Sequence record: PZ445428.1
DNA length: 64,000 bases
DNA from: a phage
Reading direction: 5' to 3' (one strand)
Shown: one piece after another, positions 35,022-50,449 of the stretch
Layout: every line of letters starts with the position of its first letter
Numbering within the stretch: the first letter of the stretch is position 1
Translations under genes and position numbers: made by a program
The notes under the pieces: model-generated
What the model saw: the letters and a program-made list of their open reading frames with translations, nothing else
The model's database searches: none
Told to the model about the DNA's origin: nothing

Positions 35022-36144
35022 CATAAATTAGAGAGAACAGCGAGCCGATTACGCTGAGTGCAGAATCCCAACCGGAGCGCATTGAATAGAGTCGGTGAGT
35101 TGTACTAGGATTCCTGATTAGAGAGGTTCCAGGCACCGCAGGGTTTACTCTGTACCGCTTCCAGCTATCGATATCAGGAATGAATAGTGCGCAAAACTCG
35201 GGAGCTGTCCCGAAACCTCGTAAACTCTTCTCTCTAATTTAATTAAACGATGGATCTCAGCACGAGCCAGTCACAGTGTGAAACATGGTGCGTGACCCAG
35301 GGGTAGAAGACTAGGAGTTGGCTTGAGAAACCCATGTAACTCCTAACGCTGACCCGTCTAGGTTGCAAATCGAGACATGTGTATATCACAATGAGGTAAG
35401 TGACCATCAAATAGTGGGTAGCGTAATTTTTAGGTGAATGATGGAGGTCTAACGACTGAGGGCATCATCTCGGGATTACCAGCCACGAAATAGTGGGGTG
35501 TCGAACTGACTTATGTAATAACACTGCCGTCCTAGTATAAACGGTAATATCAAGCCGTAACTGGTGGAAGATGTAGGTTCGAATCCTACGGTCGGTAAGA
35601 ATTAGATAACTCGGGCTTATACCGGATAAGCATTCGCTGCGGAAGTACATACTATGACGGTTCAGGAGGTACGCCGCCTGATCAGTATGAGGTTAGAATC
35701 GAAACCGCTAAACCACGAGGAAACCTGACGGCCTCAGCCAAACTCGGAAACTCAGGATCGCTGCTTAGTGCGTGCCCTGTTTTAACCTAGAGACTAAGCA
35801 CTCCAGCTTCGCATCGAAAATCGGAGGTGCGATTCTACTAGACCGCGTAACTATGAGAGGGGGAAATGCTCACATGAAACATGTGACTAATGGTGCACAA
35901 TAGAACAGGTAAACGCGATAAGTCCTGTTGAGTAGCAGCAGAAGGCTGGGAGTCATGACCTGAGCCTAACCGAGTTCTCCACATAGGGAGGACATAACCA
36001 CGAAGTCACCTTGACTTAAACTGGAAGATATTGTCTGACGGCAGGGCTGAAGAGCTTAATCTGAGGGGGCTGACCCTACCTACCGCCGGGTATCTTTAAG
36101 AGCTTTTGAGAGAGTTCTTAAAAATACCTAACAAAATCTATTTT
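35022..36144 (+). ncRNA. candidate structured stable RNA(s) or tRNA-like elements, about 1.1 kb ORF-free
   Basis: No ORF on either strand apart from one spurious minus ORF; higher GC; many hairpins (TAGGAGTT...AACTCCTA; AGAGAGAA...TTCTCTCT about 200 nt apart); T-arm-like GTAGGTTCGAATCCTAC at 35573-35589. Confidence 0.4.
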
Positions 36145-36219
36145 CGGGGTGTAGTCTAAGGGATAGGCAGGAGTCTTCTAAATTCCTTTATGCAGGTTCG
36201 AATCCTGTCACCTCGGCCA
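36145..36219 (+). tRNA. tRNA-Arg (anticodon TCT)
   Basis: Hand-folded cloverleaf: acceptor CGGGGTG/CACCTCG, anticodon loop CTTCTAA, T-arm GCAGG-TTCGAAT-CCTGT, encoded CCA. Confidence 0.8.
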
Positions 36220-42014: not shown

Positions 42015-42033
42015 TTATACAGAAAATTTCACT

Positions 42034-42061
42034 TGCTAATTGCCGAAATTTTCTGTATAAT
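42034..42061 (+). promoter_or_regulatory. sigma70 promoter driving tRNAs
   Basis: TTGCTAattgccgaaattttctgTATAAT; tRNA-Ser starts about 15 nt downstream. Confidence 0.6.
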
Positions 42062-42075: not shown

Positions 42076-42169
42076 GGAAGATTAACCCTAAAGGTAAGGG
42101 AGTTGTTTGCTAAACAACCAGTAGCTGTGGAGACACGGTGTATCAGTTCGAGTCTGGTATCTTCCTCCA
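42076..42169 (+). tRNA. tRNA-Ser (GCT)
   Basis: Acceptor GGAAGAT/ATCTTCC, anticodon loop TTGCTAA, long variable arm, T-arm ATCAG-TTCGAGT-CTGGT, CCA. Confidence 0.8.
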
Positions 42170-42176
42170 AATTCAT

Positions 42177-42254
42177 GGTTCCTTAGCTCAATCAGGTTAG
42201 AGCATTCCCCTCATAAGGGACAGGTTCTCGGATCATACCCGAGAGGAGCCACCA
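42177..42254 (+). tRNA. tRNA with CAT anticodon (Met or Ile2)
   Basis: Acceptor GGTTCCT/AGGAGCC, D-arm GCTC...GAGC, loop CTCATAA, atypical T-loop ATCATAC, CCA. Confidence 0.65.
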
Positions 42255-42271
42255 ATTAACTAGGAGACTTT

Positions 42272-42460
42272 ATGTCTAAATTCCAAGAACTAATGAGAGA
42301 GTTGGGTGAGCATCGCTGCAAGGATTGTTATGGGTCTGGAGAGCAAAACGATGCAGAGCCTGGAGATACTCGATTCAATAAGTGGACTTGTCCTACCTGC
42401 GAAGGTACAGGTATCAACCCTCTTTACACTATTTCTATCTACGTGGGAATTGCTAAATAA
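42272..42460 (+). CDS. zinc-ribbon small protein
   Basis: CKDCYGSG...CPTCEGTG; 62 aa. Confidence 0.45.
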   Translation: MSKFQELMRELGEHRCKDCYGSGEQNDAEPGDTRFNKWTCPTCEGTGINPLYTISIYVGIAK

Positions 42461-42798
42461 TGGATATTTTTACTACTCCAGCAGTCAACCTTTTAGGTGT
42501 AGGTCTGTTCCAAGCTACCATCTATCGTACTGATGATTCTACTGATGTGGTAATGTTCATCGTACCTGAATTCTTCCTAGAAAAGTTCTTTGAAGAGTTT
42601 GAGCAGTTCCGTGAAGAACATAATGCTCACTCCGATATGGAAGATCTAGCAGCTATGTTCCCTGCAGTTTACGGCTATATCTTTGAAAGTAATGGTCTGG
42701 ATCTTAATAAATCTGAGCTGGTCGAACTTAATTGGGGAATTAGTTTTGAAGTTGGCTCTCCATTCCCCCGATACTTCCAGGGTTTAGAGATCCGCTAA
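42460..42798 (+). CDS. hypothetical protein
   Basis: 112-aa ORF. Confidence 0.5.
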   Translation: MDIFTTPAVNLLGVGLFQATIYRTDDSTDVVMFIVPEFFLEKFFEEFEQFREEHNAHSDMEDLAAMFPAVYGYIFESNGLDLNKSELVELNWGISFEVGSPFPRYFQGLEIR

Positions 42799-42806
42799 GA
42801 TTACAT

Positions 42807-42883
42807 GGGGGTGTAATCGAATTGGCATAGGTACTGGACTTAAAATTCAGGTTTTGTGGGTTCGAATCCCACCACCCCTACCA
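42807..42883 (+). tRNA. tRNA with TAA anticodon (Leu by anticodon, short variable arm)
   Basis: Acceptor GGGGGTG/CACCCCT, loop CTTAAAA, T-arm GTGGG-TTCGAAT-CCCAC, CCA. Confidence 0.6.
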
Positions 42884-42900
42884 AATAAAAGGAAACTGAT

Positions 42901-43068
42901 ATGTATCAGAGACCGTCACCACCAGCTCGAAGATCAAGAGAAACTCTTTTGATGGAGTTGGCGAAAAACTTCAAGGCTAAACTTGAAGACGATAATTTTA
43001 CTACAGATGAAGATATTGACTTCATTTGCAAACTATTAAAAATGAAATTGGAGAAAAAACATGGCTAA
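42901..43068 (+). CDS. hypothetical small protein (55 aa, not in ORF track)
   Basis: ATG after AAAGGAAA; MYQRPSPPARRSRETLL... Confidence 0.35.
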   Translation: MYQRPSPPARRSRETLLMELAKNFKAKLEDDNFTTDEDIDFICKLLKMKLEKKHG

Positions 43069-43267
43069 TCCAGAAGTAGTTACACAGCGTTTGCTGATTA
43101 AAGGTGTAGTAGCTGAAGCAGGTCTTACCGAAGCTGTTGCAGATTTTCAGGCACAGTTCACAGCTATTCTCACCCAAGCTAAAGAAACTGGTGCGGAGGA
43201 GTATGCTGCTGCAACTCTAGCGCTCACGTTAGCTGGACTTGATCTGGCAGAAGAAGCCGGAGTTTAA
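43061..43267 (+). CDS. hypothetical protein
   Basis: 68-aa ORF. Confidence 0.4.
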   Translation: MANPEVVTQRLLIKGVVAEAGLTEAVADFQAQFTAILTQAKETGAEEYAAATLALTLAGLDLAEEAGV

Positions 43268-43297
43268 CTCCTCCAAGCAGAAATTTTAAAAATGTAC

Positions 43298-43327
43298 TTG
43301 CTTTTTACTTAAGATTTCTGCTATAAT
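43298..43327 (+). promoter_or_regulatory. sigma70 early promoter
   Basis: TTGCTT-18 nt-TATAAT. Confidence 0.55.
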
Positions 43328-43356
43328 AGTTATATAAATTGATGAGAGGAATCAGA

Positions 43357-43632
43357 ATGTCAAAACGTGTTACAGCAACTGGTATTGAAAGCTCAGTATG
43401 TAAATCCTGGGGTGGTTGGGAAGGTGAGATTGAATGGCTTTATTTCTACAATGTAGAACTTCTGCCTGAAATTAAAGCCCACTGTATCGAAGCTGGTATG
43501 TCTCCTGATGCTAAAGCAGATATCGAAATTACTATGACTAAACTAGAAGGTCGTGTAATTACTGTTAGTGATGAAGGTGAAGAGGTCTTCGAACTTCCAT
43601 TCACCTTGAAAGTCACTCCTTCGTTTGATTAA
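43357..43632 (+). CDS. hypothetical protein
   Basis: Start moved to ATG after GAGAGGAATCAGA. Confidence 0.5.
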   Translation: MSKRVTATGIESSVCKSWGGWEGEIEWLYFYNVELLPEIKAHCIEAGMSPDAKADIEITMTKLEGRVITVSDEGEEVFELPFTLKVTPSFD

Positions 43633-43640
43633 CTGATACA

Positions 43641-43679
43641 GCACTGAGCAAGTTCTTTAAAATTTGACTTGCTCAGTGC
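43641..43679 (+). terminator. 12-bp perfect inverted repeat overlapping the next promoter -35
   Basis: GCACTGAGCAAG...CTTGCTCAGTGC; the 3' arm contains the TTGCTC -35 element. Confidence 0.45.
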
Positions 43680-43698
43680 CTTAAAACTTGATATAATA
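43669..43698 (+). promoter_or_regulatory. sigma70 promoter driving a small RNA and tRNAs
   Basis: TTGCTCagtgccttaaaacttgaTATAAT. Confidence 0.55.
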
Positions 43699-43721
43699 GT
43701 TATCTAATTTGGAAAACATAT

Positions 43722-43820
43722 CTGAATGAGAAGTAACTAAGCGAGTTGCTTTGAGGGGTAAGGTCAGGATAGCCTGAAATATTCCACCTTGAGTTTAACC
43801 GACTTACTTTTCATTCAAAT
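43722..43820 (+). ncRNA. candidate about 100-nt structured RNA upstream of tRNA-Tyr
   Basis: Terminal stem GAATGAGAAGTAA...TTACTTTTCATTC enclosing about 75 nt; no ORF. Confidence 0.3.
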
Positions 43821-43902
43821 ATGTTGGATTAGTATCGTAGAGGTAGCGAAGCAGACTGTAAATCTGCCGACTCGGAAGGGTCTCGGGTGGTTCGACTCCA
43901 TC
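43812..43902 (+). tRNA. tRNA-Tyr (GTA)
   Basis: Acceptor GTTGGAT/ATCCAAC, anticodon arm GCAGA-CTGTAAA-TCTGC, long variable arm, CCA. Confidence 0.75.
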
Positions 43903-43921
43903 ATCCAACACCAAATTTAAT

Positions 43922-43996
43922 GCACCTATCGTCTATCGGTTAGGACATCAGGTTTTCAACCTGAGAAGCTCGGTTCGATTCCGTGTGGGTGTACCA
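43922..43996 (+). tRNA. tRNA-Glu (TTC)
   Basis: Acceptor GCACCTA/TGGGTGT, anticodon arm TCAGG-TTTTCAA-CCTGA, CCA. Confidence 0.7.
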
Positions 43997-44003
43997 AATT
44001 AAT

Positions 44004-44080
44004 GTTCTGCTAGACAAACAGGTAAAGTCCCTACCCTTTCAAGGTAGGGTTTGCGGGTTCGATCCCCGCACAGAACGCCA
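44004..44080 (+). tRNA. tRNA with TTC anticodon (second Glu-type)
   Basis: Anticodon arm CTACC-CTTTCAA-GGTAG, T-arm GCGGG-TTCGATC-CCCGC, CCA. Confidence 0.6.
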
Positions 44081-44088
44081 TATTCTGC

Positions 44089-44165
44089 ATTCCTAGAGTG
44101 TTACTGGACAGCATGTCGGTCTCCAAAACCGTACGGTCTAGGTTCGAGTCCTAGTAGGTTTGCCA
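44089..44165 (+). tRNA. tRNA-Trp (CCA), acceptor stem with U-U mismatches
   Basis: Anticodon loop CTCCAAA, T-arm CTAGG-TTCGAGT-CCTAG, CCA. Confidence 0.55.
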
Positions 44166-44171
44166 ATATTT

Positions 44172-44246
44172 GCACCTTTAGCTGAGATGGATTAGCGCTT
44201 GCCTGAAGAGCTTGAGAGGTTGGATCGTTACCAACGGGGTGCACCA
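44172..44246 (+). tRNA. tRNA-Phe (GAA)
   Basis: Acceptor GCACCTT/GGGGTGC, D-arm GCTG...TAGC, loop CTGAAGA, CCA. Confidence 0.6.
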
Positions 44247-44263
44247 ATTTGAAGGAGATGCTG

Positions 44264-44536
44264 ATGCATCCTGAAAACTTCTTTATATACTGTACTAGTC
44301 CTTTGCTTAAACGCCGGATTAATAAAGTATATCACTACAGAGCTAGTCAACAGCCTTATATTTATGATTCTAGTGGAGATCACATTCCACTTGAGCAACT
44401 AGGGACTGATTATATGGTTTTGAAGCACTTTAATGAGGCAAAGATCTCAAGCGTTCATAACCGACAAAACTCTAAAACGTGGTGGTATAAGAAGCGTAAG
44501 AAAGGCATCAAATTTCTGAAAAATGTAGTTGCTTAA
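44264..44536 (+). CDS. hypothetical protein
   Basis: Start moved to ATG 6 nt after AAGGAG; the track start is TTG. Confidence 0.45.
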   Translation: MHPENFFIYCTSPLLKRRINKVYHYRASQQPYIYDSSGDHIPLEQLGTDYMVLKHFNEAKISSVHNRQNSKTWWYKKRKKGIKFLKNVVA

Positions 44537-44585
44537 ATCCTTAAAGTTCTGTATAATTATTACATAAATTGAACTGGAGAACTAG

Positions 44586-44774
44586 ATGAAAGCACCTAAA
44601 CCGAAATTAGTTAAGTTCGACTGCTGTGACACTGAAATCTTATTTACTAAGTTTGGTGAATTTAAGATGTGTGAATGTGGAACATGTGGTTACGATCATG
44701 GTGATGGATATTATTGCAGAACCCTCGGGCCTTCTGAACTAATCCACTTCTCATGGCCGGAAAGTAAAGAATAA
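44586..44774 (+). CDS. Cys-rich small protein
   Basis: FDCCDTE...CECGTCGYDHGDGYYC; 62 aa. Confidence 0.45.
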   Translation: MKAPKPKLVKFDCCDTEILFTKFGEFKMCECGTCGYDHGDGYYCRTLGPSELIHFSWPESKE

Positions 44775-44776
44775 TA

Positions 44777-44852
44777 CGACCGTTGGCTGAATGGCTTAGG
44801 CGGGGGCCTGCAAAACCTCCTTATGTGAGTTCGAATCTCATGCGGTCGTCCA
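44777..44852 (+). tRNA. tRNA-Cys (GCA)
   Basis: Acceptor CGACCGT/GCGGTCG, loop CTGCAAA, T-arm GTGAG-TTCGAAT-CTCAT, CCA. Confidence 0.65.
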
Positions 44853-44859
44853 AATTTAT

Positions 44860-44942
44860 GGGTCGTTAGCCAAGCGGTTTGGCGGTGGACTGTTAATCCA
44901 TGTCGAAAGACAACGTAGGTTCGAATCCTGCACGGCCCGCCA
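44860..44942 (+). tRNA. tRNA with GTT anticodon (Asn) and extended variable arm
   Basis: Anticodon arm GTGGA-CTGTTAA-TCCAT, extra arm GTCGAAAGAC, T-arm GTAGG-TTCGAAT-CCTGC, CCA. Confidence 0.6.
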
Positions 44943-44970
44943 TTTTTCACTAAAAACTGAGGAAATAGAT

Positions 44971-45156
44971 ATGACAACTCATGCAATTGCTCGACTAGAA
45001 GCTGATCGCGATAGTATTAAGAACAATATTAAAGTTCGTGATCAAATCATTAAGGTTTTAAAGGCAGAACTGCTTGAAGAACTTCAACATCAAGTAGATC
45101 GTCGTGAGTCTTTAAAAGAAGTCGAGGAAGCTCTGTCTAAACTCAAAGCTGAATAA
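44971..45156 (+). CDS. hypothetical coiled-coil protein
   Basis: 61-aa ORF. Confidence 0.4.
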   Translation: MTTHAIARLEADRDSIKNNIKVRDQIIKVLKAELLEELQHQVDRRESLKEVEEALSKLKAE

Positions 45157-45165
45157 ACAAATTAT

Positions 45166-45242
45166 GCGATCGGGGCTGGCTTGGTAATGGTACTCCCCTG
45201 TCACGGGAGAGAATGTGGGTTCGAATCCCATCGGTCGCGCCA
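45166..45242 (+). tRNA. tRNA-Asp (GTC)
   Basis: Acceptor GCGATCG/CGGTCGC, anticodon arm CTCCC-CTGTCAC-GGGAG, CCA. Confidence 0.8.
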
Positions 45243-45248
45243 AATTAT

Positions 45249-45324
45249 ACATCCATAGCTCAATGGTTAGAGCTACCGCCTCTTAAGCGGAGGGTTCTAG
45301 GTTCAAGTCCTAGTGGGTGTACCA
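45249..45324 (+). tRNA. tRNA-Lys (CTT)
   Basis: Acceptor ACATCCA/TGGGTGT, D-arm GCTC...GAGC, loop CTCTTAA, T-arm CTAGG-TTCAAGT-CCTAG, CCA. Confidence 0.65.
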
Positions 45325-45329
45325 AATAC

Positions 45330-45668
45330 TGGGGTCTTAGCTAATCGGTTAAGCGTCATGGATAGCGGTGAATTCCGGCCTATGAAGGGAGTAACACGTA
45401 GTCTCCCAGACTCCACCAAATTTCAGTGCAGAACACGGAGCTAGCAATTCGGAAGTGCTGACGCGCGATAAGCTGCCTATGTACTTGCAAAGCGGACGTG
45501 TCCTAGACTCGGACTCTTGCACTGAAACCAATTAAACATTCTAGCGTGGTGGAGAGGGGACACCAGCTTGCCGAGGGTAGAAGCTCGTTCGATTCGAGTG
45601 AAAGAATGGTTCTCGTAAATCCGCACAAGTGATAGTAGGTTCAAGTCCTGCCTAGATTGACTTATTAT
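45330..45668 (+). ncRNA. cluster of tRNA-like / structured RNA elements, non-canonical
   Basis: Acceptor-like stems with encoded CCA (GGGGTCT...AGACTCCACCA; TTCAGTG...CACTGAAACCA) and T-arm-like motifs, but no canonical cloverleaf by hand folding. Confidence 0.35.
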
Positions 45669-45742
45669 GCGTCCATAGTTAAAAGGTATAATTTCTGGTT
45701 GCCAACCAGATGTTGAGAGTTCGATTCTCTCTGGCCGCACCA
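45669..45742 (+). tRNA. tRNA-Gly (GCC)
   Basis: Anticodon arm TCTGG-TTGCCAA-CCAGA, T-arm GAGAG-TTCGATT-CTCTC, CCA. Confidence 0.75.
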
Positions 45743-46050
45743 AATTTAGGTTTATGCTTCCTAGAGAACGTACTCCTAAATAAACAAGGCGATGAGTTTC
45801 CGGCCGGTTCTAGTCGCTGAAAATCCTCCCGACCAGGTAGGTGTAGGTAAACGAAAGTTTACTTATTAAGTAAGTCCGACACATCGGCGGGTGTGTTCTA
45901 GTATTTAAAGAAGGTCTCGCAAACTTTCTCGCTAGCATGAGTTCATAGCTCGGTGACTTACCTAATAAGTAAATTTATTAAAAATGTAATTGCTATTTAG
46001 CTTAATTCTCTGTATAATATATTTTATAAAGTGATGAGAAGGAAAGCAAA

Positions 46051-46209
46051 GTGAAATTAAAAATTGCAGATGTACTTATGTGTACTTGGGTAATTCCAAT
46101 CATAATTGTTGGTTTTAACGCAGATATACTTTCCACAGCGTGGAAGATTGTAGGGCTAAGTACAGGGTTCACAATGCTAGGGTTAAGCATGTTGTGGACG
46201 AAAAACTAA
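46051..46209 (+). CDS. hypothetical small hydrophobic peptide (GTG start)
   Basis: 52 codons after promoter and GAGAAGGAAAG; not in ORF track. Confidence 0.3.
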   Translation: MKLKIADVLMCTWVIPIIIVGFNADILSTAWKIVGLSTGFTMLGLSMLWTKN

Positions 46210-46213
46210 TATT

Positions 46214-46290
46214 CTCCGATTAGCTCAATTGGCTAGAGTACACCGTTTGGGGTGGTGGGGTTGAAGGTTCGAGTCCTTCATTGGAGACCA
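46214..46290 (+). tRNA. tRNA-Pro (TGG)
   Basis: Acceptor CTCCGAT/ATTGGAG, anticodon arm CACCG-TTTGGGG-TGGTG, T-arm GAAGG-TTCGAGT-CCTTC, CCA. Confidence 0.8.
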
Positions 46291-46305
46291 AATAAGAGGT
46301 TAATA

Positions 46306-46458
46306 ATGCGTCATTTAAATAGGCAAAAAACAAAAGCACCTAAAAGGTTTAAGACTTGGTGCGGTTGTGATAGAGAACTCGTTTCTCTAGGAGAGAAATG
46401 TTCTGTTTGTGGTGTACGCTTTGTTAAGTTCAAACAAAGATTTAAATTTGCGAGTTAG
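46306..46458 (+). CDS. zinc-ribbon small protein
   Basis: 50 aa, CGCDRE...CSVCG; its 3' end overlaps the 5' end of the next tRNA. Confidence 0.35.
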   Translation: MRHLNRQKTKAPKRFKTWCGCDRELVSLGEKCSVCGVRFVKFKQRFKFAS

Positions 46459-46526
46459 ATCTCTGGTAGAGATCACTAGTCTCATAAGCTAGTAAGAGGT
46501 CGGTTCGATTCCGACACTCGCATCCA
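46449..46526 (+). tRNA. tRNA with CAT anticodon (Met or Ile2)
   Basis: Acceptor TGCGAGT/ACTCGCA, D-arm GATC...GATC, anticodon arm CTAGT-CTCATAA-GCTAG, CCA. Confidence 0.75.
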
Positions 46527-46537
46527 AAAAGTATTAA

Positions 46538-46615
46538 GGGTTGCTAGCTCAACTGGTTTAGAGCACTGGTCTTTTAAACCATAGGTTACAGGTTCGAGTC
46601 CTGTGCAACCCACCA
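46538..46615 (+). tRNA. tRNA-Lys (TTT)
   Basis: Acceptor GGGTTGC/GCAACCC, loop CTTTTAA, T-arm ACAGG-TTCGAGT-CCTGT, CCA. Confidence 0.75.
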
Positions 46616-46619
46616 AATT

Positions 46620-46693
46620 GCTCGGTTAGTTTAATGGGAGAACCCCGTCTTTACACGGCGGTTGCGATAGTTCGATTCTATCACCGAGTACCA
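46620..46693 (+). tRNA. tRNA-Val (TAC)
   Basis: Anticodon arm CCGTC-TTTACAC-GGCGG, T-arm GATAG-TTCGATT-CTATC, CCA. Confidence 0.7.
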
Positions 46694-46717
46694 CTTAACT
46701 AAAATAAGGAATTGCAA

Positions 46718-47077
46718 ATGCAATTATCATCTAAAGTTCAAGGTTTCTTCACACATGCAACAGCAGAATTTGCTATTAGCAAGGGTTGGGACTTTGAGCA
46801 AGAACTTTCTGAGTTCTATAAAGATATAGATATGAATACACCATACATGGCCTTAGCTTCTGGACAAGAGTTCTCAGAAGGTGATCTTTTCAAGGCAAGT
46901 CAAGGCGAGGTAACGCCTGGTTTTGCCGCTTTTTGGAGTGGCTTCACAATTAAAGAAGAAGCTCCAGATGATGATGTATTTATGCAAAGCATGCACTCTG
47001 GGAGTTCTGATATGTTATTCGTTAAAGATGTACGACATATCCAAGAAGTGGTAAAAACGTATTTGCAAAATGCTTAA
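46718..47077 (+). CDS. hypothetical protein
   Basis: Start moved to ATG 7 nt after TAAGGA. Confidence 0.5.
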   Translation: MQLSSKVQGFFTHATAEFAISKGWDFEQELSEFYKDIDMNTPYMALASGQEFSEGDLFKASQGEVTPGFAAFWSGFTIKEEAPDDDVFMQSMHSGSSDMLFVKDVRHIQEVVKTYLQNA

Positions 47078-47331
47078 TTTCTTGTTATAATATTTATATA
47101 AATTGATGGGGAGAAATCCTCATCAAAGTTCACTAAGGTATTAGCTCGACCTAGGACTGGCTGCCACCAAGCACGATCCCTACGACTCGGGAGAAGTTCT
47201 AGATTAGTCCACTAGATTCAGCGGCAACTGAATAGTGTATCGGGTTTGTGAAGAGCGGGTATCCAAGCCTGGCTAATGGCACTGGGTATTACGCACACCG
47301 AGCTAATAGCCTTAGTAAACTTGAAGAATTT

Positions 47332-47406
47332 GGGCGAATAGTGTCAGCGGGAGCACACCAGACTTGCAATCTGGTAGGGAGGGTTCGAGTCCCTCTTTGT
47401 CCACCA
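47332..47406 (+). tRNA. tRNA-Ala (TGC)
   Basis: Acceptor GGGCGAA/TTTGTCC, anticodon arm CCAGA-CTTGCAA-TCTGG, T-arm GAGGG-TTCGAGT-CCCTC, CCA. Confidence 0.75.
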
Positions 47407-47412
47407 AATTTT

Positions 47413-47488
47413 GGGGTCATAGGTTATTTGGTTAAACTTACTGCCTTGCAAGCAGTAGAACTCAGTTCAATTCTGAGTGACTCCACCA
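47413..47488 (+). tRNA. tRNA with TGC anticodon (second Ala-type)
   Basis: Acceptor GGGGTCA/TGACTCC, anticodon arm ACTGC-CTTGCAA-GCAGT, T-arm CTCAG-TTCAATT-CTGAG, CCA. Confidence 0.6.
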
Positions 47489-47507
47489 AACAAATTAAGG
47501 AAATAAT

Positions 47508-47726
47508 ATGGTATTCTTAGCAGCCTCTGTAGTTCTTGCATCTTTAGCGTTAGCTATCTATTTTAGAACTGCTAAAGATTTATCTAAAGAAAAGAAAACT
47601 TTCTTTACTGATTACTCTTGGGGTGCTCCATACGCTATCAATTCTATCAGTCTAGAAGCTATGTTGATAATGGTATTCAGTGGTATAGGTTCTATCGTTG
47701 CTGGATTACTTTTTATTTCTAACTAA
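47508..47726 (+). CDS. hypothetical small membrane protein
   Basis: 72 aa, two hydrophobic segments; AAGGAAA upstream. Confidence 0.45.
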   Translation: MVFLAASVVLASLALAIYFRTAKDLSKEKKTFFTDYSWGAPYAINSISLEAMLIMVFSGIGSIVAGLLFISN

Positions 47727-47733
47727 ACAAAAT

Positions 47734-47814
47734 GGGGATGTGGCGAAATTGGCAGACGCGCTAGATTTAGGTTCTAGTCTTCGGGTGTGGGTTCGAGTCC
47801 CTCCATCCCTACCA
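47734..47814 (+). tRNA. tRNA-Leu (TAG)
   Basis: Acceptor GGGGATG/CATCCCT, anticodon arm CTAGA-TTTAGGT-TCTAG, extended variable arm, CCA. Confidence 0.7.
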
Positions 47815-47834
47815 TTTTAAAATAGGATTAATTA

Positions 47835-47999
47835 ATGTTAAAGATGCCAGTAAAACATATTTGGTTAGCTAGAAATAGGGCTACTAATGAATTTGTCTTT
47901 ATTGATACAGGAATGACATATGATCAACGAATATATGATCTTCTGTATTCCGTGTCTGCTGAAGAAGTACACAAATTAATTCTAAAAGATGCAACATAA
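47835..47999 (+). CDS. hypothetical small protein (54 aa, not in ORF track)
   Basis: ATG after TAGGA; the minus-strand track ORFs here overlap tRNAs and are rejected. Confidence 0.3.
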   Translation: MLKMPVKHIWLARNRATNEFVFIDTGMTYDQRIYDLLYSVSAEEVHKLILKDAT

Positions 48000-48001
48000 T
48001 T

Positions 48002-48094
48002 GGAAGAGCAAATCGACTTGGTGACGAAAACCGCTTGGAAAGTGGCTGACTTGTGAAAGCAGGCTTGAGAGTTCGAATCTCTCTTCTTCCGCCA
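48002..48094 (+). tRNA. class II tRNA, probably Ser (GGA)
   Basis: Acceptor GGAAGAG/TTCTTCC, candidate loop TTGGAAA, long variable arm, T-arm GAGAG-TTCGAAT-CTCTC, CCA; anticodon arm is imperfect. Confidence 0.5.
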
Positions 48095-48101
48095 AACAAT
48101 T

Positions 48102-48191
48102 GGAAGTACGGGCGTAGTGGTATGCAACTAGTCTTGAAAACTAGCCCGCTGTAGCGATATGGTGATGGTTCGACTCCATGTGCTTCCGCCA
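48102..48191 (+). tRNA. tRNA-Ser (TGA)
   Basis: Acceptor GGAAGTA/TGCTTCC, anticodon arm CTAGT-CTTGAAA-ACTAG, long variable arm, CCA. Confidence 0.7.
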
Positions 48192-48196
48192 AATCT

Positions 48197-48327
48197 TGGA
48201 ATATGCCGGAATTGGTAGACGGGACTGCCGAATAGGTTTACTAGGAACATCCACTCCTAGAAATATACCTTAAAAGCGGTTGAGTTAAATGGTCTAACTC
48301 GTGAAGGTTCAAGTCCTTCTATTCCTT
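48197..48327 (+). ncRNA. tRNA-like element, about 131 nt, non-canonical
   Basis: Perfect T-arm GAAGG-TTCAAGT-CCTTC and acceptor-like TGGAATA/TATTCCT, but no CCA and no canonical anticodon arm. Confidence 0.35.
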
Positions 48328-48434
48328 GATACATCAATGGCTCAAAGAGTAACGGTGCACCTTTCTAGAGAATTTCCTGGGCGAGAATCCAGGTGTAATC
48401 AACTAGTCGTTAGTGTGATGAGTTTCGGAGAGCC

Positions 48435-48581
48435 GCCACAATTGAAGATCATTGTCTGTTTGAGTCTACCATTTAGGGTCGTTACTTGTAGCGCCTATCT
48501 GCTAGGTCTAATCACTAGGTAAAGGCATGCAAGCTTCTAGTGTAGAGAGTTCGCTACTCCTCGATGGTTTTCAATTGTGGC
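48435..48581 (+). ncRNA. candidate structured RNA closed by a 12-bp long-range stem
   Basis: GCCACAATTGAA (48435-48446) pairs perfectly with TTCAATTGTGGC (48570-48581); the 3' arm overlaps the tRNA-His 5' end. Confidence 0.3.
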
Positions 48582-48653
48582 TATATCATAATTGGTTAAT
48601 GATCCTGATTGTGAATCAGGCCTATGTGGATTCGAGTTCCACTAGCCACCCCA
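48577..48653 (+). tRNA. tRNA-His (GTG)
   Basis: Acceptor GTGGCTA/TAGCCAC, D-arm TCAT...ATGA, anticodon arm CCTGA-TTGTGAA-TCAGG, CCA. Confidence 0.8.
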
Positions 48654-48659
48654 AATATT

Positions 48660-48734
48660 GCGTCCTTATTTCAACGGAAAGAATGTAAAGCTACGAACTT
48701 TACGATCGGGGTTCGATTCCCTGAGGATGCACCA
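48660..48734 (+). tRNA. tRNA-Arg (ACG)
   Basis: Acceptor GCGTCCT/AGGATGC, anticodon arm TAAAG-CTACGAA-CTTTA, T-arm CGGGG-TTCGATT-CCCTG, CCA. Confidence 0.8.
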
Positions 48735-48758
48735 ATTAACTTAAACAGGAAAATAATA

Positions 48759-48959
48759 ATGGCTGATTTCTGTAAAGAATGCTCTATCGATATGTGGGGC
48801 AAAGATACACAAGATCTTTCTGGTCTTATCACTGAAGCTGAAGTTAAAGAAGGCTATGGTGCTGTAGTAATCTGCGAAGGTTGTGGTATTATCCGTGTTG
48901 ATCATGAAGGCAAACGCCTTGAAGAACCTGAGCCAATCGCAACGGTTCCTGTAGAGTAA
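48759..48959 (+). CDS. zinc-ribbon small protein
   Basis: MADFCKECSID...CEGCG; start moved to ATG after AGGAAA. Confidence 0.45.
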   Translation: MADFCKECSIDMWGKDTQDLSGLITEAEVKEGYGAVVICEGCGIIRVDHEGKRLEEPEPIATVPVE

Positions 48960-48967
48960 CAAATTAT

Positions 48968-49043
48968 TGGGATGTAGATCAATTGGCAGATCGTCGGCCT
49001 CTGACTCCGAAGGTTCCTGGTTCGATCCCAGGCATCCCAGCCA
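48968..49043 (+). tRNA. tRNA-Gln (CTG)
   Basis: Acceptor TGGGATG/CATCCCA, D-arm GATC...GATC, loop CTCTGAC, T-arm CCTGG-TTCGATC-CCAGG, CCA. Confidence 0.7.
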
Positions 49044-49050
49044 AACAATT

Positions 49051-49125
49051 GGAGAATAGTGTAGTGGTTCGCACAACGGCCTTTGACTCCGTTAGTGGTA
49101 GGTTCAATTCCTCCTTCTCCTGCCA
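49051..49125 (+). tRNA. tRNA-Gln (TTG)
   Basis: Acceptor GGAGAAT/TTCTCCT, loop CTTTGAC, T-loop TTCAATT, CCA. Confidence 0.65.
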
Positions 49126-49131
49126 ATTTAT

Positions 49132-49206
49132 GCGTGATTAGTTCAGTGGCTAGAATAACTGGCTTCCAACCAGTAGACACGAGTTCGACTCTCGTATCCC
49201 GCACCA
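49132..49206 (+). tRNA. tRNA-Gly (TCC)
   Basis: Anticodon arm ACTGG-CTTCCAA-CCAGT, T-arm ACGAG-TTCGACT-CTCGT, CCA. Confidence 0.75.
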
Positions 49207-49220
49207 AATAAGGAAACGTT

Positions 49221-49442
49221 ATGCACGTTTTTGAGTTTCGTAATAAAAGCCCCAATAGACGCGTTTTGATTATTGGTGAAACATATCGAGCTTACGAGCA
49301 AGAAGATGGTTCAGTTTTACTAAACGATGAAAAGCAAGGTTATAGCTTTCATCCAGAAGAAACGTATGAAGAGTTTCGTACTAAGTTTCTTTTACCAGAC
49401 TGGCTAGCAGTAGCCGAGCAACGAGAATCCGAAGATGGCTGA
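49221..49442 (+). CDS. hypothetical protein
   Basis: 73-aa ORF after AAGGAAA. Confidence 0.45.
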   Translation: MHVFEFRNKSPNRRVLIIGETYRAYEQEDGSVLLNDEKQGYSFHPEETYEEFRTKFLLPDWLAVAEQRESEDG

Positions 49443-49599
49443 TAACCTGAAACTAAAGGTTGACAAACAGAAGAAACGTGTAGAGATTGAGCTTGGTGAC
49501 GAACGCCTAGCACTATCCTTCGAGTTTCTTCAGCAGTTGGCGATGACAGTAATGTCTGATAAGTCTCCTGTATTTGAAAAAGAAATCCCGTTGAAATGA
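49435..49599 (+). CDS. hypothetical small protein (54 aa, not in ORF track)
   Basis: ATG overlapping the upstream stop; MADNLKLKVDKQKK... Confidence 0.35.
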   Translation: MADNLKLKVDKQKKRVEIELGDERLALSFEFLQQLAMTVMSDKSPVFEKEIPLK

Positions 49600-49609
49600 C
49601 GGGTTTATT

Positions 49610-49684
49610 GCTCCTAAAGCATTGCTGGCGATGCAGTTGCCTTGTAAGCATCTGAACCGGGTTCGATTCCTGGTGGGAGCACCA
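49610..49684 (+). tRNA. tRNA-Thr (TGT)
   Basis: Acceptor GCTCCTA/TGGGAGC, D-arm GCAT...ATGC, loop CTTGTAA, T-arm CCGGG-TTCGATT-CCTGG, CCA. Confidence 0.75.
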
Positions 49685-49758
49685 AATTTAAAAATTCATT
49701 TGCCTTCTCTCTTATTTCTTGTTATAATATTTATATAAATTAATGAGAGGGAAACCAA

Positions 49759-50052
49759 ATGAAACGTTATCTTTCTGTCGTGTTCCAAACTGGTGGTCAG
49801 CGTTATACCTACGAATTTCCAGAGTCTTGGAAAATCAAAGAAGGTGATCAGGTTGTTGTACTGACACCGCGTGAAGGCTTCAAAGTGGTTACGGTTAAAC
49901 AAGTATTTCCTAAAGATCACGAACCATCTAAATCTATTAATTATAAGATGATTCATGGTCTGGTACGAAAAGTACCACGGACGGAAGTTGAAGTAGATAA
50001 AGATGGTGAAGCTAAATACCAGTATACTTCTTACCTAGACGAGATGCGATAA
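49759..50052 (+). CDS. hypothetical protein
   Basis: 97-aa ORF after promoter and GAGAGGGAAACC. Confidence 0.5.
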   Translation: MKRYLSVVFQTGGQRYTYEFPESWKIKEGDQVVVLTPREGFKVVTVKQVFPKDHEPSKSINYKMIHGLVRKVPRTEVEVDKDGEAKYQYTSYLDEMR

Positions 50053-50276
50053 TGAGAATTACCTTTACTGAGAAGATAATATGTAATGGGATTATGATCA
50101 TTACAGCGTGGGAAGGTAAACAATGGTGCAGTATAACGGGTCTTAAAGCAGAAGATCAAACACCAGAAAACATTCTCAAAATAAAACAAAACATGGCAAA
50201 ACATGCTAAACGTCCTGGTGCTCCTAGGAATGGCATACGTTTTGCAGCAAAATGCTCCGATAGTTCAAACGGTTAG
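50052..50276 (+). CDS. hypothetical protein; 3' end overlaps tRNA-Ile
   Basis: 74-aa ORF; last 7 codons overlap the tRNA 5' half. Confidence 0.4.
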   Translation: MRITFTEKIICNGIMIITAWEGKQWCSITGLKAEDQTPENILKIKQNMAKHAKRPGAPRNGIRFAAKCSDSSNG

Positions 50277-50329
50277 AACAGGCGACCGATAATCGTCAAA
50301 TCTTGGTTCGATCCCAAGTTGGAGTACCA
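50254..50329 (+). tRNA. tRNA-Ile (GAT)
   Basis: Acceptor GCTCCGA/TTGGAGT, D-arm GTTC...GAAC, anticodon arm GGCGA-CCGATAA-TCGTC, T-arm CTTGG-TTCGATC-CCAAG, CCA. Confidence 0.75.
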
Positions 50330-50373
50330 AAACAACGGAGAGTCACTACCGTAAGTGTGAAGTTGAAAAATAT

Positions 50374-50449
50374 AGTTAGTTGGCAGATCGGTTATGCACC
50401 TCCTTCATACGGAGCGATCAGAGTGGTTCGATTCCACTACTAACTACCA
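50374..50449 (+). tRNA. tRNA with CAT anticodon (third CAT tRNA)
   Basis: Acceptor AGTTAGT/ACTAACT, loop TTCATAC, T-arm AGTGG-TTCGATT-CCACT, CCA. Confidence 0.7.

What the first reader, a model, noticed from the sequence alone, without database searches (positions are those of the whole stretch)
42076..50449. tRNA cluster of about 31 genes with duplicated anticodons and atypical members
Hand folding gives about 31 tRNAs in 8.4 kb covering most amino acids. Unusual features: two adjacent TTC tRNAs, two adjacent TGC tRNAs, three CAT tRNAs, a TAA-anticodon tRNA with a short variable arm, a GTT tRNA with an extra arm, U-U mismatched acceptor stems (Trp), and an atypical T-loop (ATCATAC). Some could be decoys or repair substrates for anticodon-nuclease defences.
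Basis: partly seen in the sequence, partly recalled or inferred. Interest (0 to 1): 0.45.

Follow-up and report, generated by a model that had tools for sequence, protein, structure and literature searches.

The report
T5-like phage tRNA gene cluster
This is the well-known block of about 30 transfer-RNA genes carried by T5-like phages (here Escherichia phage TrudiGerster/Bas27), which lets the phage keep translating when bacterial defences destroy host tRNAs; the cluster is ordinary for this family, though a few of its tRNAs have odd, conserved shapes that I did not find described.

Summary
The window is 100% identical to Escherichia phage TrudiGerster (Bas27), a T5-like Epseptimavirus. Positions 42076-50449 are its tRNA-rich region (TRR).

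ARAGORN, Rfam and the GenBank record together give 30 tRNA genes there. All are on the + strand, all encode CCA, and they cover all 20 amino acids. A 31st gene, Arg-TCT, lies at 36145.

Most are conserved in relatives with compensating base changes, so these are working genes, not pseudogenes. The three CAT tRNAs sit where T5 annotates Ile2, fMet and Met. The Glu and Ala pairs are only 55% and 62% identical, so they are different alleles rather than fresh duplicates.

Gene order and seven promoter positions match phage T5. Lys-TTT is identical to the T5 tRNA that resists the PARIS nuclease. Tyr is identical to the SP15 tRNA that rescues infection from retron-Eco7. The anti-defence idea is therefore established, but as resistant or abundant substitutes, not as repair substrates.

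I found no description of four conserved variants:
- a swapped A54/U58 T-loop
- an Asn tRNA with an extra arm
- a Leu tRNA without the long arm
- a mismatched Trp acceptor stem

The parts
42076..42169 (+). tRNA-Ser(GCT), type II, discriminator U73
   Evidence: ARAGORN; RF00005 43.9 bits; 93-95% identical to SB10, TrudiRoth and saus132
42177..42254 (+). tRNA(CAT) no. 1, in the T5 tRNA-Ile2(CAU) slot; T-loop ATCATAC (A54/U58 swap)
   Evidence: 54.8 bits. T5 slot annotation. Rare allele, also in GSW6, Eos and KKP_3711, with anticodon-stem covariation and a conserved loop. C29-G41 is invariant in every variant.
42807..42883 (+). tRNA-Leu(TAA), type I (5-nt variable loop), Leu-type D-arm, A73
   Evidence: 57.4 bits; 100% identical in SP15, SB10, TrudiRoth and saus132; aligned with other type-I Leu-anticodon tRNAs
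43823..43913 (+). tRNA-Tyr(GTA), type II
   Evidence: 32.6 bits. 100% identical to SP15 tRNA-Tyr, which rescues infection from retron-Eco7 (PMC11555353). Anticodon stem-loop identical to E. coli tyrU; the variable arm differs.
43922..43996 (+). tRNA-Glu(TTC) no. 1, My1-type allele, G1.U72, A73
   Evidence: 52.8 bits; exact copy only in Salmonella phage EH7, otherwise at most 84% identical; aligned with My1 Glu
44004..44080 (+). tRNA-Glu(TTC) no. 2, T5-type allele, G1-C72, U2-A71, G73
   Evidence: 49.3 bits; 94% identical to T5; 55% identical to Glu no. 1
44089..44165 (+). tRNA-Trp(CCA) with U2.U71 and U3.U70 mismatches
   Evidence: (36.3 bits). The My1 orthologue keeps pyrimidine-pyrimidine mismatches at 2:71 and 3:70 while pairs 4:69 to 7:66 all covary.
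44172..44246 (+). tRNA-Phe(GAA); T-loop ATCGTTA (A54/U58 swap); two U.U mismatches in the anticodon stem
   Evidence: RF00005 33.4 bits; ARAGORN -ps90; the same loop in GSW6 and My1 Phe with a compensating T-stem change
44777..44852 (+). tRNA-Cys(GCA)
   Evidence: 38 bits; 99% identical to TrudiRoth, 89% to T5
44860..44942 (+). tRNA-Asn(GTT) with an extra variable arm (GTC-GAAA-GAC), G73
   Evidence: 56.3 bits. More than 260 phage records are 95-99% identical, and T4-like Jiaodavirus copies are 80% identical. The arm helix is 100% paired, and 2 of its 4 pairs change on both sides.
45166..45242 (+). tRNA-Asp(GTC)
   Evidence: 46.8 bits; 97% identical to T5
45249..45324 (+). tRNA-Lys(CTT)
   Evidence: 64.8 bits; absent from T5, 100% identical in SB10 and saus132
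45537..45661 (+). homologue of T5 'RNA2' (tRNA-like stable RNA); not annotated in the GenBank record
   Evidence: 89% identical over 125 nt to the T5 rna2 feature; acceptor-like and T-arm-like helices in the fold
45669..45742 (+). tRNA-Gly(GCC), A73
   Evidence: (61.8 bits)
46214..46290 (+). tRNA-Pro(TGG)
   Evidence: 52.5 bits; 99% identical to T5
46449..46526 (+). tRNA(CAT) no. 2, orthologue of the T5 'initiator tRNA fMet'; U1-A72, U73; lacks the three G-C pairs of a canonical initiator
   Evidence: 48.9 bits; 94% identical to T5 fMet over 64 nt
46538..46615 (+). tRNA-Lys(TTT) carrying A39 and C41
   Evidence: 69.2 bits. 100% identical to T5 tRNA-Lys, which AriB does not cut because of U39A and A41C (PMC11464382 and PMC12409363).
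46620..46693 (+). tRNA-Val(TAC)
   Evidence: 57.8 bits; 96% identical to T5
47139..47251 (+). homologue of T5 'RNA2H' (stable RNA of unknown function); not annotated in the GenBank record
   Evidence: 95% identical over 113 nt
47332..47406 (+). tRNA-Ala(TGC) no. 1, T5 allele
   Evidence: 54.9 bits. 100% identical to T5 tRNA-Ala, which the T5 record says converts into an effective suppressor.
47413..47488 (+). tRNA-Ala(TGC) no. 2, SB10/saus132 allele
   Evidence: 61.8 bits; 62% identical to Ala no. 1
47734..47814 (+). tRNA-Leu(TAG) with a shortened variable arm (81 nt)
   Evidence: (53.5 bits)
48002..48094 (+). tRNA-Ser(GGA), type II
   Evidence: GenBank; ARAGORN -ps90; below the Rfam threshold (25.4 bits on the tRNA-Sec model); 97-98% identical to SB10 and saus132; aligns with T5 Ser2
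48102..48191 (+). tRNA-Ser(TGA), type II
   Evidence: GenBank; ARAGORN -ps90; 38.3 bits on the tRNA-Sec model; 96% identical to T5 Ser1 over 70 nt, with compensating acceptor-stem changes
48195..48338 (+). homologue of T5 'RNA1' (tRNA-like stable RNA); not annotated in the GenBank record
   Evidence: 96% identical over 144 nt; weak RF00005 hit at 48259-48327, 24 bits; fold z-score -2.0
48577..48653 (+). tRNA-His(GTG)
   Evidence: ARAGORN; RF00005 58.6 bits in E-value mode; 99% identical to T5
48660..48734 (+). tRNA-Arg(ACG)
   Evidence: 53.4 bits
48968..49043 (+). tRNA-Gln(CTG)
   Evidence: 59.5 bits
49050..49125 (+). tRNA-Gln(TTG)
   Evidence: 46.2 bits
49132..49206 (+). tRNA-Gly(TCC), A73
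   Evidence: (65.5 bits)
49610..49684 (+). tRNA-Thr(TGT) with G39 and a U28.U42 mismatch
   Evidence: 47.4 bits. 96% identical to T5 Thr; the anticodon stem-loop is invariant in T5 and My1. T5 Thr contributes to PARIS evasion (PMC12409363).
50254..50329 (+). tRNA-Ile(GAT)
   Evidence: 56.6 bits
50374..50449 (+). tRNA(CAT) no. 3, orthologue of T5 elongator tRNA-Met
   Evidence: 43.2 bits; 91% identical to T5 tRNA-Met
36145..36219 (+). tRNA-Arg(TCT), the outlying 31st tRNA gene
   Evidence: 49.3 bits; 99% identical to T5 tRNA-Arg
35490..36131 (+). homologue of T5 'RNAX' (stable RNA); includes a tRNA-like element without CCA at 35525-35598, which ARAGORN calls 'Ser(ACT)'
   Evidence: 36.2 bits; 97% identical to T5
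42033..42061 (+). T5-early-type promoter TTGCTA-17-TATAAT before Ser-GCT (position of T5 P15b)
   Evidence: T5 promoter features
43298..43327 (+). promoter TTGCTT-18-TATAAT (position of T5 P15c)
43669..43697 (+). promoter TTGCTC-17-TATAAT upstream of tRNA-Tyr (position of T5 P14a)
   Evidence: nearly identical to the SP15 and T5 sequences upstream of Tyr. The SP15 Tyr promoter is reported as exceptionally strong (PMC11555353).
44529..44557 (+). promoter TTGCTT-17-TATAAT (position of T5 P14b)
45990..46018 (+). promoter TTGCTA-17-TATAAT (position of T5 P13a)
47063..47091 (+). promoter TTGCAA-17-TATAAT (position of T5 P13b)
49700..49728 (+). promoter TTGCCT-17-TATAAT (position of T5 P11)
42272..42798 (+). 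two small ORFs (62 and 112 aa) between tRNAs
   Evidence: GenBank; phrog_6060 ('anti-termination protein Q-like') and phrog_9447
42901..43632 (+). three small ORFs (55, 68 and 91 aa)
   Evidence: phrog_7716, phrog_5153 and phrog_4551, all of unknown function
44264..44774 (+). two small ORFs (90 and 62 aa)
   Evidence: phrog_5876 and phrog_7042
44971..45156 (+). small ORF (61 aa)
   Evidence: phrog_5473
46718..47077 (+). small ORF (119 aa)
   Evidence: phrog_7572
47508..47726 (+). small ORF (72 aa)
   Evidence: phrog_15739
48337..48522 (+). small ORF (61 aa)
   Evidence: phrog_24969
48759..48959 (+). small ORF (66 aa)
   Evidence: phrog_2210
49221..49599 (+). two small ORFs (73 and 54 aa)
   Evidence: phrog_5598 and phrog_5919
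49759..50052 (+). small ORF (97 aa)
   Evidence: phrog_4760

Best explanation
This is the tRNA-rich region (TRR) of a T5-like phage, Escherichia phage TrudiGerster (Bas27). It holds 30 functional tRNA genes covering all 20 amino acids, with small ORFs and tRNA-like stable RNAs between them. It is most likely transcribed from seven T5-type early promoters.

The tRNAs give the phage its own decoding capacity. Their main value is to replace host tRNAs that tRNA-targeting defences destroy, such as PARIS AriB, PtuAB of retron-Eco7 and Septu, and PrrC. They can do this for two reasons. They differ from the host isoacceptors at the sites the nucleases recognise, and at least some are made in large amounts. 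Secondarily, they fit the phage's AT-rich codon usage.

Shown here: identity, anatomy, conservation and covariation. Shown in the literature for identical or near-identical tRNAs: Lys, Thr and Tyr counter-defence. Inferred: that the other tRNAs, including the structurally odd ones, serve the same purpose.
For: **Identity and layout**
- 100% identity to MZ501108, an Epseptimavirus.
- Same gene order as T5, and seven promoter-like sites at the same relative positions as the seven promoters annotated in T5.

**The genes look functional**
- 28 of 30 pass the Rfam tRNA threshold. The other two are homologous to T5 Ser1 and Ser2.
- All 30 encode CCA.
- Stems covary between relatives.
- Ala no. 1 and Lys-TTT (100% identical) and His and Pro (99%) match T5 tRNAs that the T5 record reports as convertible into amber suppressors.

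**Direct links to published counter-defence**
- Lys-TTT is identical to the AriB-resistant T5 tRNA, with A39 and C41 (PMC11464382 and PMC12409363).
- Thr has G39 where the host has U39 in the AriB motif.
- Tyr is identical to the SP15 tRNA that rescues infection from retron-Eco7. It has the same strong-promoter sequence upstream and a variable arm that differs from the host's (PMC11555353 and PMC13096335).

**Divergence from the host and mosaic make-up**
- Every phage tRNA is only 55-80% identical to its E. coli K-12 isoacceptor.
- Different alleles occupy the same slot in different relatives, as expected under diversifying pressure.

**Codon fit**
- Phage GC3 is 37%. CTA, TTA, AGA, GGA, ACA, CCA, GTA and AAG are all well used, and each has a matching phage anticodon.
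Against: - There are no experimental data for Bas27's own tRNAs.
- Bas27 is still restricted by the anticodon nuclease Ec1ApeA (bioRxiv 10.64898/2026.01.26.701840).
- A bacterial Schlafen cleaves T5-encoded tRNAs as well as host ones (PMC13056530). The set is therefore no general shield.
- The Asn allele here keeps the host's AriB site, UAAUC|C.
- SP15 tRNA-Asn, which is 99% identical, did not rescue infection from PrrC170.
- According to the T5 record, about half of the T5 tRNAs could not be turned into suppressors. This is uninformative wherever the anticodon is an identity element.
- For most of the 30 tRNAs no cognate defence is known, so codon supply or host shut-off could explain them equally well.
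Confidence: 0.85

Rival explanations
1. Codon-usage compensation only. The tRNAs exist to decode A/U-ending codons that the AT-rich phage uses more than its host does, and they have no role in immunity.
For: - The window is 41% GC, and GC3 of its long ORFs is 37%.
- Many of the anticodons begin with U.
- CTA (16%), TTA (20%), AGA (12%), GGA (19%), GTA (34%) and AAG (44%) are used more than the commonly quoted E. coli values. Those host values come from general knowledge and were not computed here.
- The phage carries Lys-CTT. The K-12 lysT operon fetched here holds only Lys-UUU genes, and from general knowledge K-12 has no Lys(CUU) gene at all.
Against: - The set covers all 20 amino acids, including tRNAs for codons the host reads well.
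- T5 and SP15 mutants that lost the roughly 8-kb region grow on defence-free hosts, yet become sensitive to PARIS or retron-Eco7.
- Sequence changes sit exactly at nuclease recognition sites.
- The two explanations are not mutually exclusive.
Confidence: 0.35
2. Host shut-off compensation. T5-like phages degrade host DNA early in infection, so host tRNA synthesis stops, and the phage supplies a full replacement set to sustain late translation.
For: - The set is complete for all 20 amino acids.
- It has early-type promoters.
- It has its own initiator-like and Ile2-like tRNAs.
- That T5 degrades host DNA is general knowledge and was not tested here.
Against: - tRNAs are stable over a single infection cycle.
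- TRR-deleted T5 and SP15 are viable.
- Shut-off does not explain the allele mosaicism or the site-specific substitutions.
Confidence: 0.2
3. One reading: some members are decoys that soak up anticodon nucleases, or substrates of a phage RNA-repair pathway.
For: - A decoy-or-supplement role is mentioned as a possibility for T6 tRNA-Tyr, which Septu does cleave (PMC13096335).
- The Asn allele here keeps the host's AriB site, so it could be cut.
Against: - For the cases that have been worked out, the phage tRNA is not cleaved (Lys) or acts through abundance (Tyr).
- No RNA ligase or polynucleotide kinase appears among the annotated genes around the cluster. The whole genome was not checked.
- The 'duplicates' are divergent, well-formed alleles, not degenerate copies.
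Confidence: 0.1
4. The atypical and duplicated members are decaying pseudogenes.
For: - Several members score low on the covariance model: Tyr 32.6, Phe 33.4, Trp 36.3 and Cys 38 bits, and both Ser fall below threshold.
- T5 marks its Gln-CUG as a pseudogene.
- tRNA-like remnants do exist in the region: the RNA1, RNA2 and RNAX homologues.
Against: - The lowest-scoring member, Tyr, is identical to an experimentally active tRNA.
- The odd features are conserved across genera with compensating changes. This holds for the CAT no. 1 anticodon stem, the Phe T-stem, the Asn extra arm and Trp acceptor pairs 4-7.
- All members keep CCA, G53-C61, U55, C56 and G18G19.
Confidence: 0.05

Closest known systems
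tRNA gene region (tRNA-rich region, TRR) of phage T5 and T5-like Demerecviridae (AY543070; SP15)
   Same: - Same genome position, strand and gene order.
- Seven promoter positions match, and the stable-RNA homologues (RNA1, RNA2, RNA2H, RNAX) are present.
- Many tRNAs are 94-100% identical, including the experimentally characterised Lys, Thr and Tyr.
   Different: - 30 genes in this region against about 23 in the corresponding T5 region.
- Extra Leu-TAA, Glu no. 1, Lys-CTT, Gly-GCC, Ala no. 2 and Arg-ACG.
- Different alleles at the Ile2-like, Trp, Asn, Leu-TAG and Phe T-arm slots.
- No HNH homing endonucleases inside the region.
Phage T4/T6 tRNA cluster with SegB, and T4 Pnkp/Rnl1 repair of PrrC-cleaved tRNA-Lys
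   Same: - A clustered set of phage tRNAs involved in a tRNA-centred arms race.
- T6 tRNA-Tyr counters Septu.
- The extra-arm Asn allele is shared with T4-like Jiaodavirus phages at 80% identity.
   Different: - T4 has 8 tRNAs and relies on repair enzymes or gene amplification.
- Here the set is complete, and the mechanism is substitution. No repair genes were seen in the neighbourhood.
Mycobacteriophage tRNA arrays with anticodon-loop mutations (van den Berg et al. 2023, PMC10264068)
   Same: The idea that phage tRNAs diverge from host tRNAs at nuclease recognition sites (abstract; cited).
   Different: - Here, about half of the compared tRNAs have an anticodon loop identical to the host's.
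- The differences lie in the anticodon stem, the variable region, the T-loop and the acceptor stem.

Membership tests
T5-like (Demerecviridae) tRNA-rich region | Lies in a T5-like genome, in the early region and next to the formate-acetyltransferase-like gene | tested here: met
   100% match to Epseptimavirus TrudiGerster. The 'putative formate acetyltransferase' gene follows the last tRNA, as T5.056 does in T5.
T5-like (Demerecviridae) tRNA-rich region | About 8 kb holding 20 or more same-strand tRNA genes, interspersed with small ORFs, in the T5 gene order | tested here: met
   30 tRNAs in 8.4 kb, all on the + strand; 15 small ORFs with PHROG hits; order matches T5 and five other relatives
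T5-like (Demerecviridae) tRNA-rich region | Early-type sigma-70 promoters spread through the array | tested here: met
   Seven TTGCnn-17/18-TATAAT sites at the relative positions of T5 P15b, P15c, P14a, P14b, P13a, P13b and P11. This is sequence evidence only.
T5-like (Demerecviridae) tRNA-rich region | Dispensable on naive hosts, required on hosts with tRNA-targeting defences | not testable with these tools
   Shown for T5 and SP15 deletion mutants in PMC11464382 and PMC11555353, not for Bas27.
Canonical tRNA (Rfam RF00005) | Cloverleaf scoring at or above the gathering threshold of 29 bits | tested here: met
   28 of 30 pass. Ser-GGA and Ser-TGA fail RF00005, but ARAGORN calls them at a relaxed threshold and they are homologous to T5 Ser2 and Ser1.
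Canonical tRNA (Rfam RF00005) | Universal T-loop U54-A58 pair | tested here: not met
   This applies to two of the 30 genes. CAT no. 1 (ATCATAC) and Phe (ATCGTTA) have A54 and U58. All the other T-loop invariants are kept.
AriB(PARIS)-resistant phage tRNA-Lys(UUU) | A39 and C41 in place of the host's U39 and A41 | tested here: met
   The sequence is identical to T5 tRNA-Lys. The anticodon stem-loop reads CTGGT CTTTTAA ACCAT, against the host's GTTGA CTTTTAA TCAAT (criterion).
PtuAB(retron-Eco7)-evading phage tRNA-Tyr | The SP15/T5-type tRNA-Tyr sequence with a distinctive variable arm and a strong upstream promoter | tested here: met
   100% identical to SP15 tRNA-Tyr; the promoter region is nearly identical (criteria).
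Initiator tRNA-fMet (bacterial) | A 1:72 mismatch, A73, and three consecutive G-C pairs at the bottom of the anticodon stem | tested here: not met
   CAT no. 2 has U1-A72, U73, and the anticodon stem CTAGT/GCTAG. It is the orthologue of the gene that the T5 record labels fMet, so its function remains open.
tRNA-Ile2 (lysidine, CAU) | A TilS and IleRS substrate: C29-G41, A37, A38, A73, and C4-G69/C5-G68 | tested here: inconclusive
   CAT no. 1 has C29-G41 (invariant across all variants), A37, A38, A73 and C5-G68, but U4-A69. The slot is annotated Ile2 in T5. The criteria come from general knowledge.
Phage tRNA repair system (T4 Pnkp + Rnl1) | Polynucleotide kinase-phosphatase and RNA ligase genes in the phage | not tested
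   None is annotated in the 26.5 kb around the cluster. The rest of the genome was not examined.

The most novel reading that the evidence does not exclude
Four conserved structural departures may be shape-level escapes from defence nucleases or tRNA-modifying toxins. Such enzymes would read the tRNA elbow, the variable region or the acceptor stem rather than the anticodon loop. The four departures are:
- an A54/U58-swapped T-loop in the Ile2-like, Phe and (in phage My1) His tRNAs
- an Asn tRNA that has gained a variable arm while keeping the host's AriB site
- Leu-anticodon tRNAs that have lost the long variable arm, which is the part PtuAB cuts in tRNA-Tyr
- a Trp tRNA with fixed pyrimidine-pyrimidine mismatches at 2:71 and 3:70

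I found no description of any of these in the searchable literature.
Probability: 0.3. Interest if true: 0.55.

Novelty: already known. Interest (0 to 1): 0.2.

Why it matters
As a whole the cluster adds nothing new. T5-like tRNA-rich regions are annotated in hundreds of genomes, and their counter-defence role was shown in 2024-2026 for PARIS, retron-Eco7, Septu and PrrC.

What could matter is narrower. This one phage collects several tRNAs whose architecture, not just sequence, differs from the universal pattern, and comparative data show those differences are under selection. If they mark escape from defences that recognise tRNA shape, they are ready-made probes for finding such defences. 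They would also help map what AriB, PtuAB and similar nucleases need beyond the anticodon arm.

Tried and rejected
- **Pseudogenes.** Rejected. The odd features are conserved with compensating changes, and the lowest-scoring gene, Tyr, is identical to an active tRNA.
- **Recent tandem duplication of Glu and Ala.** Rejected. The pairs are 55% and 62% identical, and each copy matches a different allele lineage in relatives.
- **'Three Met tRNAs'.** ARAGORN's label is naive. The three slots correspond to Ile2, fMet and Met in T5.
- **tRNA-Sec hits on the two Ser genes, and Plastid-ycf2, psbI-rps4 and other sub-threshold Rfam hits.** These are artefacts of long-arm tRNAs or of the antisense strand of tRNAs.
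- **The 'tRNA-Ser(ACT)' at 35525.** Not a working tRNA. It has no CCA and a poor anticodon arm, and it lies inside the homologue of T5 RNAX.
- **The generic promoter scan.** It shows no overall enrichment: 24 sites against 20 expected. Only the T5-type subset with a perfect TATAAT is meaningful.
- **Failed or discarded runs.** One search failed on a file path. The T-loop survey in the second half was mis-parsed and is superseded.
- **Literature searches.** Searches for an A54/U58 T-loop and for a long-arm Asn tRNA in phages found nothing relevant.
- **RNA-repair genes.** I did not search the rest of the phage genome for them.

Full report
**1. What the window is**

Positions 42000-50500 are 100% identical to Escherichia phage TrudiGerster (Bas27 of the BASEL collection, MZ501108). 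This phage is a Demerecviridae/Epseptimavirus, that is, a T5-like phage. 518 phage records share similar sequence. The GenBank record annotates 30 tRNA genes between window positions 42076 and 50449, plus tRNA-Arg(TCT) at 36145.

**2. Checking the observation**

- ARAGORN at default settings finds 27 tRNAs in the stated range and two upstream.
- Rfam at gathering thresholds finds 26 of those 27 plus Phe at 44172. It missed His only because of its speed filters, since His scores 58.6 bits in E-value mode.
- ARAGORN at a relaxed threshold recovers Phe(GAA), Ser(GGA) at 48002 and Ser(TGA) at 48102.
- The union is 30 genes, the same as the GenBank list. All are on the + strand, all have an encoded CCA end, and they cover all 20 amino acids.
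- Rfam E-values run from 1e-13 to 1e-3, so chance is excluded.

Every specific oddity is present:
- adjacent Glu-TTC genes and adjacent Ala-TGC genes
- three CAT anticodons
- a 77-nt TAA tRNA with a 5-nt variable loop
- an 83-nt GTT tRNA with an extra hairpin
- Trp with U2.U71 and U3.U70
- the T-loop ATCATAC, in the first CAT tRNA

**3. Comparison with T5 and other relatives**

The richly annotated T5 record (AY543070) shows the same gene order: Ser3(GCU), Ile2(CAU), Tyr, Glu, Trp, Phe, Cys, Asn, Asp, Pro, fMet, Lys, Val, Ala, Leu, Ser2, Ser1, His, Gln2, Gln1, Gly, Thr, Ile1, Met. The three CAT tRNAs here therefore occupy the Ile2, fMet and Met slots.

I fetched the equivalent regions of SP15, My1, SB10, TrudiRoth, saus132, GSW6, Eos and KKP_3711. 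The array is mosaic. Some tRNAs are 96-100% identical to T5: Lys-TTT, Ala no. 1, His, Pro, Asp, Thr, Val and Arg-TCT. Others are replaced by quite different alleles at the same slot: the Ile2-like tRNA, Trp, Asn, Leu-TAG and the T-arm of Phe.

The two Glu genes are 55% identical and the two Ala genes 62%. Each matches a different allele lineage, so they are not recent duplications.

Seven sites of the form TTGCnn-17/18-TATAAT lie at the same relative positions as the seven promoters annotated in T5. The one before Tyr is nearly identical to the SP15 and T5 sequence, which is reported as an exceptionally strong promoter.

The gaps without ORFs contain homologues of T5's stable RNAs: RNA2, RNA2H, RNA1 and, upstream, RNAX. 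The fifteen small ORFs all match PHROG families. Fourteen of those families have unknown function, and one carries the label 'anti-termination protein Q-like'.

**4. Are the odd tRNAs real?**

- **Ile2-like CAT tRNA.** This allele is rare: 13 records hold a near-full-length match, and the listed T5-like matches come from six phages. In GSW6, Eos and KKP_3711 the T-arm CTCGG-ATCAT(A/T)C-CCGAG is kept, while the anticodon stem changes with compensation (TTCCC/GGGAC, AACCC/GGGTT, ATCAA/TTGAA). C29-G41 never changes.
- **Phe.** The loop ATCGTTA recurs in GSW6 and in the distant phage My1, with a compensating G-C to A-U change in the T-stem. My1 His has the same loop on a different stem.
- **The swap itself.** In all eight cases A54 occurs together with U58, while G53-C61, U55, C56, a purine at position 57 and G18G19 are retained. 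This looks like a concerted swap of the universally conserved U54-A58 pair. That pair's conservation is described in PMC7912444.
- **Extra-arm Asn.** This allele is common. More than 260 records are 95-99% identical, and it is also found at 80% identity in T4-like Jiaodavirus phages. On six diverse copies the extra helix is 100% paired. Two of its four pairs change on both sides, including a pair gained by insertion on both strands.
- **Trp.** The My1 orthologue changes all of pairs 4:69 to 7:66 with compensation, yet keeps pyrimidine-pyrimidine mismatches at 2:71 and 3:70.
- **Leu-TAA.** It keeps the Leu-type D-arm (G13.A22, A14, A15, UUGG, 20a) and A73, but has no long arm. Type-I tRNAs with Leu anticodons also occur in SP15 and TrudiRoth (TAG) and in My1 and KKP_3711 (TAA).

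Together these results rule out pseudogenes.

**5. Mechanism**

All phage tRNAs are only 55-80% identical to the E. coli K-12 isoacceptors that I fetched.

Published work links specific members to defence evasion:
- T5 Thr(UGU) and Asn(GUU) are also needed.
- SP15 and T5 tRNA-Tyr rescue infection from retron-Eco7 PtuAB. PtuAB cuts the variable arm of host tRNA-Tyr, and the phage tRNA differs there.

Here, Lys-TTT is identical to the T5 tRNA and Tyr is identical to the SP15 tRNA. Thr has G39 in place of the host's U39.

Codon usage in the window (GC3 of 37%) also fits the anticodon set, so codon supply is a compatible second benefit.

There are limits:
- Bas27 is still restricted by the anticodon nuclease ApeA.
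- A bacterial Schlafen cuts T5 tRNAs as well as host ones.
- The Asn allele here keeps the host's AriB site.

**6. Verdict**

The anti-defence link is correct and already demonstrated. The mechanism, however, is substitution by resistant or abundant tRNAs, not repair, and a decoy role is only a suggestion in the literature.

The cluster is an already-known kind of object, annotated in this very genome.

What remains of interest is a set of conserved structural variants that I did not find described: the A54/U58 T-loop, the extra-arm Asn, the arm-less Leu and the mismatched Trp acceptor stem. Whether they are immune-escape adaptations is an inference only.

Noticed in passing
window 45537-45661, 47139-47251, 48195-48338, 35490-36131: Homologues of T5's 'stable RNAs of unknown function' fill the ORF-free gaps of the cluster. 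They are RNA2 and RNA1 (both tRNA-like), RNA2H and RNAX, at 81-96% identity. None is annotated in the TrudiGerster record. RNA1 folds as a tRNA-like molecule with extra hairpins.
   Followed up: partly
window 35525-35598: ARAGORN calls a 'tRNA-Ser(ACT)' here, and RF00005 gives it 36.2 bits. It has good acceptor and T arms but no CCA and a poor anticodon arm. It lies inside the RNAX homologue and overlaps an annotated minus-strand ORF. It is 97% identical in T5.
   Followed up: partly
window 42177-42254 and 44172-44246; L004 2505-2579 and 12722-12798; L021, L022 and L023 at 3001-3078: T-loops with A54 and U58 in place of the universal U54 and A58 recur in three tRNA isotypes (Ile2-like, Phe, His) across T5-like phages of different genera. 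A54 and U58 always occur together, and the other T-loop invariants are intact.
   Followed up: partly
window 44860-44942; L024 61-145; L025 61-146: The Asn(GTT) allele with an extra variable arm is shared between T5-like siphoviruses and T4-like Jiaodavirus myoviruses at 80% identity. This suggests the tRNA gene has been exchanged between phage families.
   Followed up: partly
window 42076-42169: The GenBank note for this tRNA-Ser reads 'codon recognized: CGA'. The anticodon is GCT (codon AGC), so this is an annotation slip.
   Followed up: yes
window 42076-50449 versus L002 (T5) and L006 (TrudiRoth): This tRNA region contains no HNH homing endonuclease genes. T5 has four to five inside or next to its tRNA genes, and TrudiRoth has three. 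Such endonucleases are a plausible driver of the allele mosaicism.
   Followed up: no
window 40232-41984: Directly upstream of the cluster lie a NadR-like nicotinamide-nucleotide adenylyltransferase and a PnuC-type NMN transporter (GenBank annotation). These NAD-salvage genes sit next to the tRNA block. T5 has a different gene at this position.
   Followed up: no
window 45249-45324: The phage carries a tRNA-Lys(CTT), and its long ORFs use AAG for 44% of Lys codons. The K-12 lysT operon fetched here holds only Lys(UUU) genes, and from general knowledge K-12 has no Lys(CUU) gene.
   Followed up: partly
literature (bioRxiv 10.64898/2026.01.26.701840): Bas27, this phage, is used as a phage restricted by Ec1ApeA, a HEPN nuclease that cuts the tRNA anticodon loop. 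Its 31 tRNAs therefore do not protect it against every tRNA-targeting defence.
   Followed up: no
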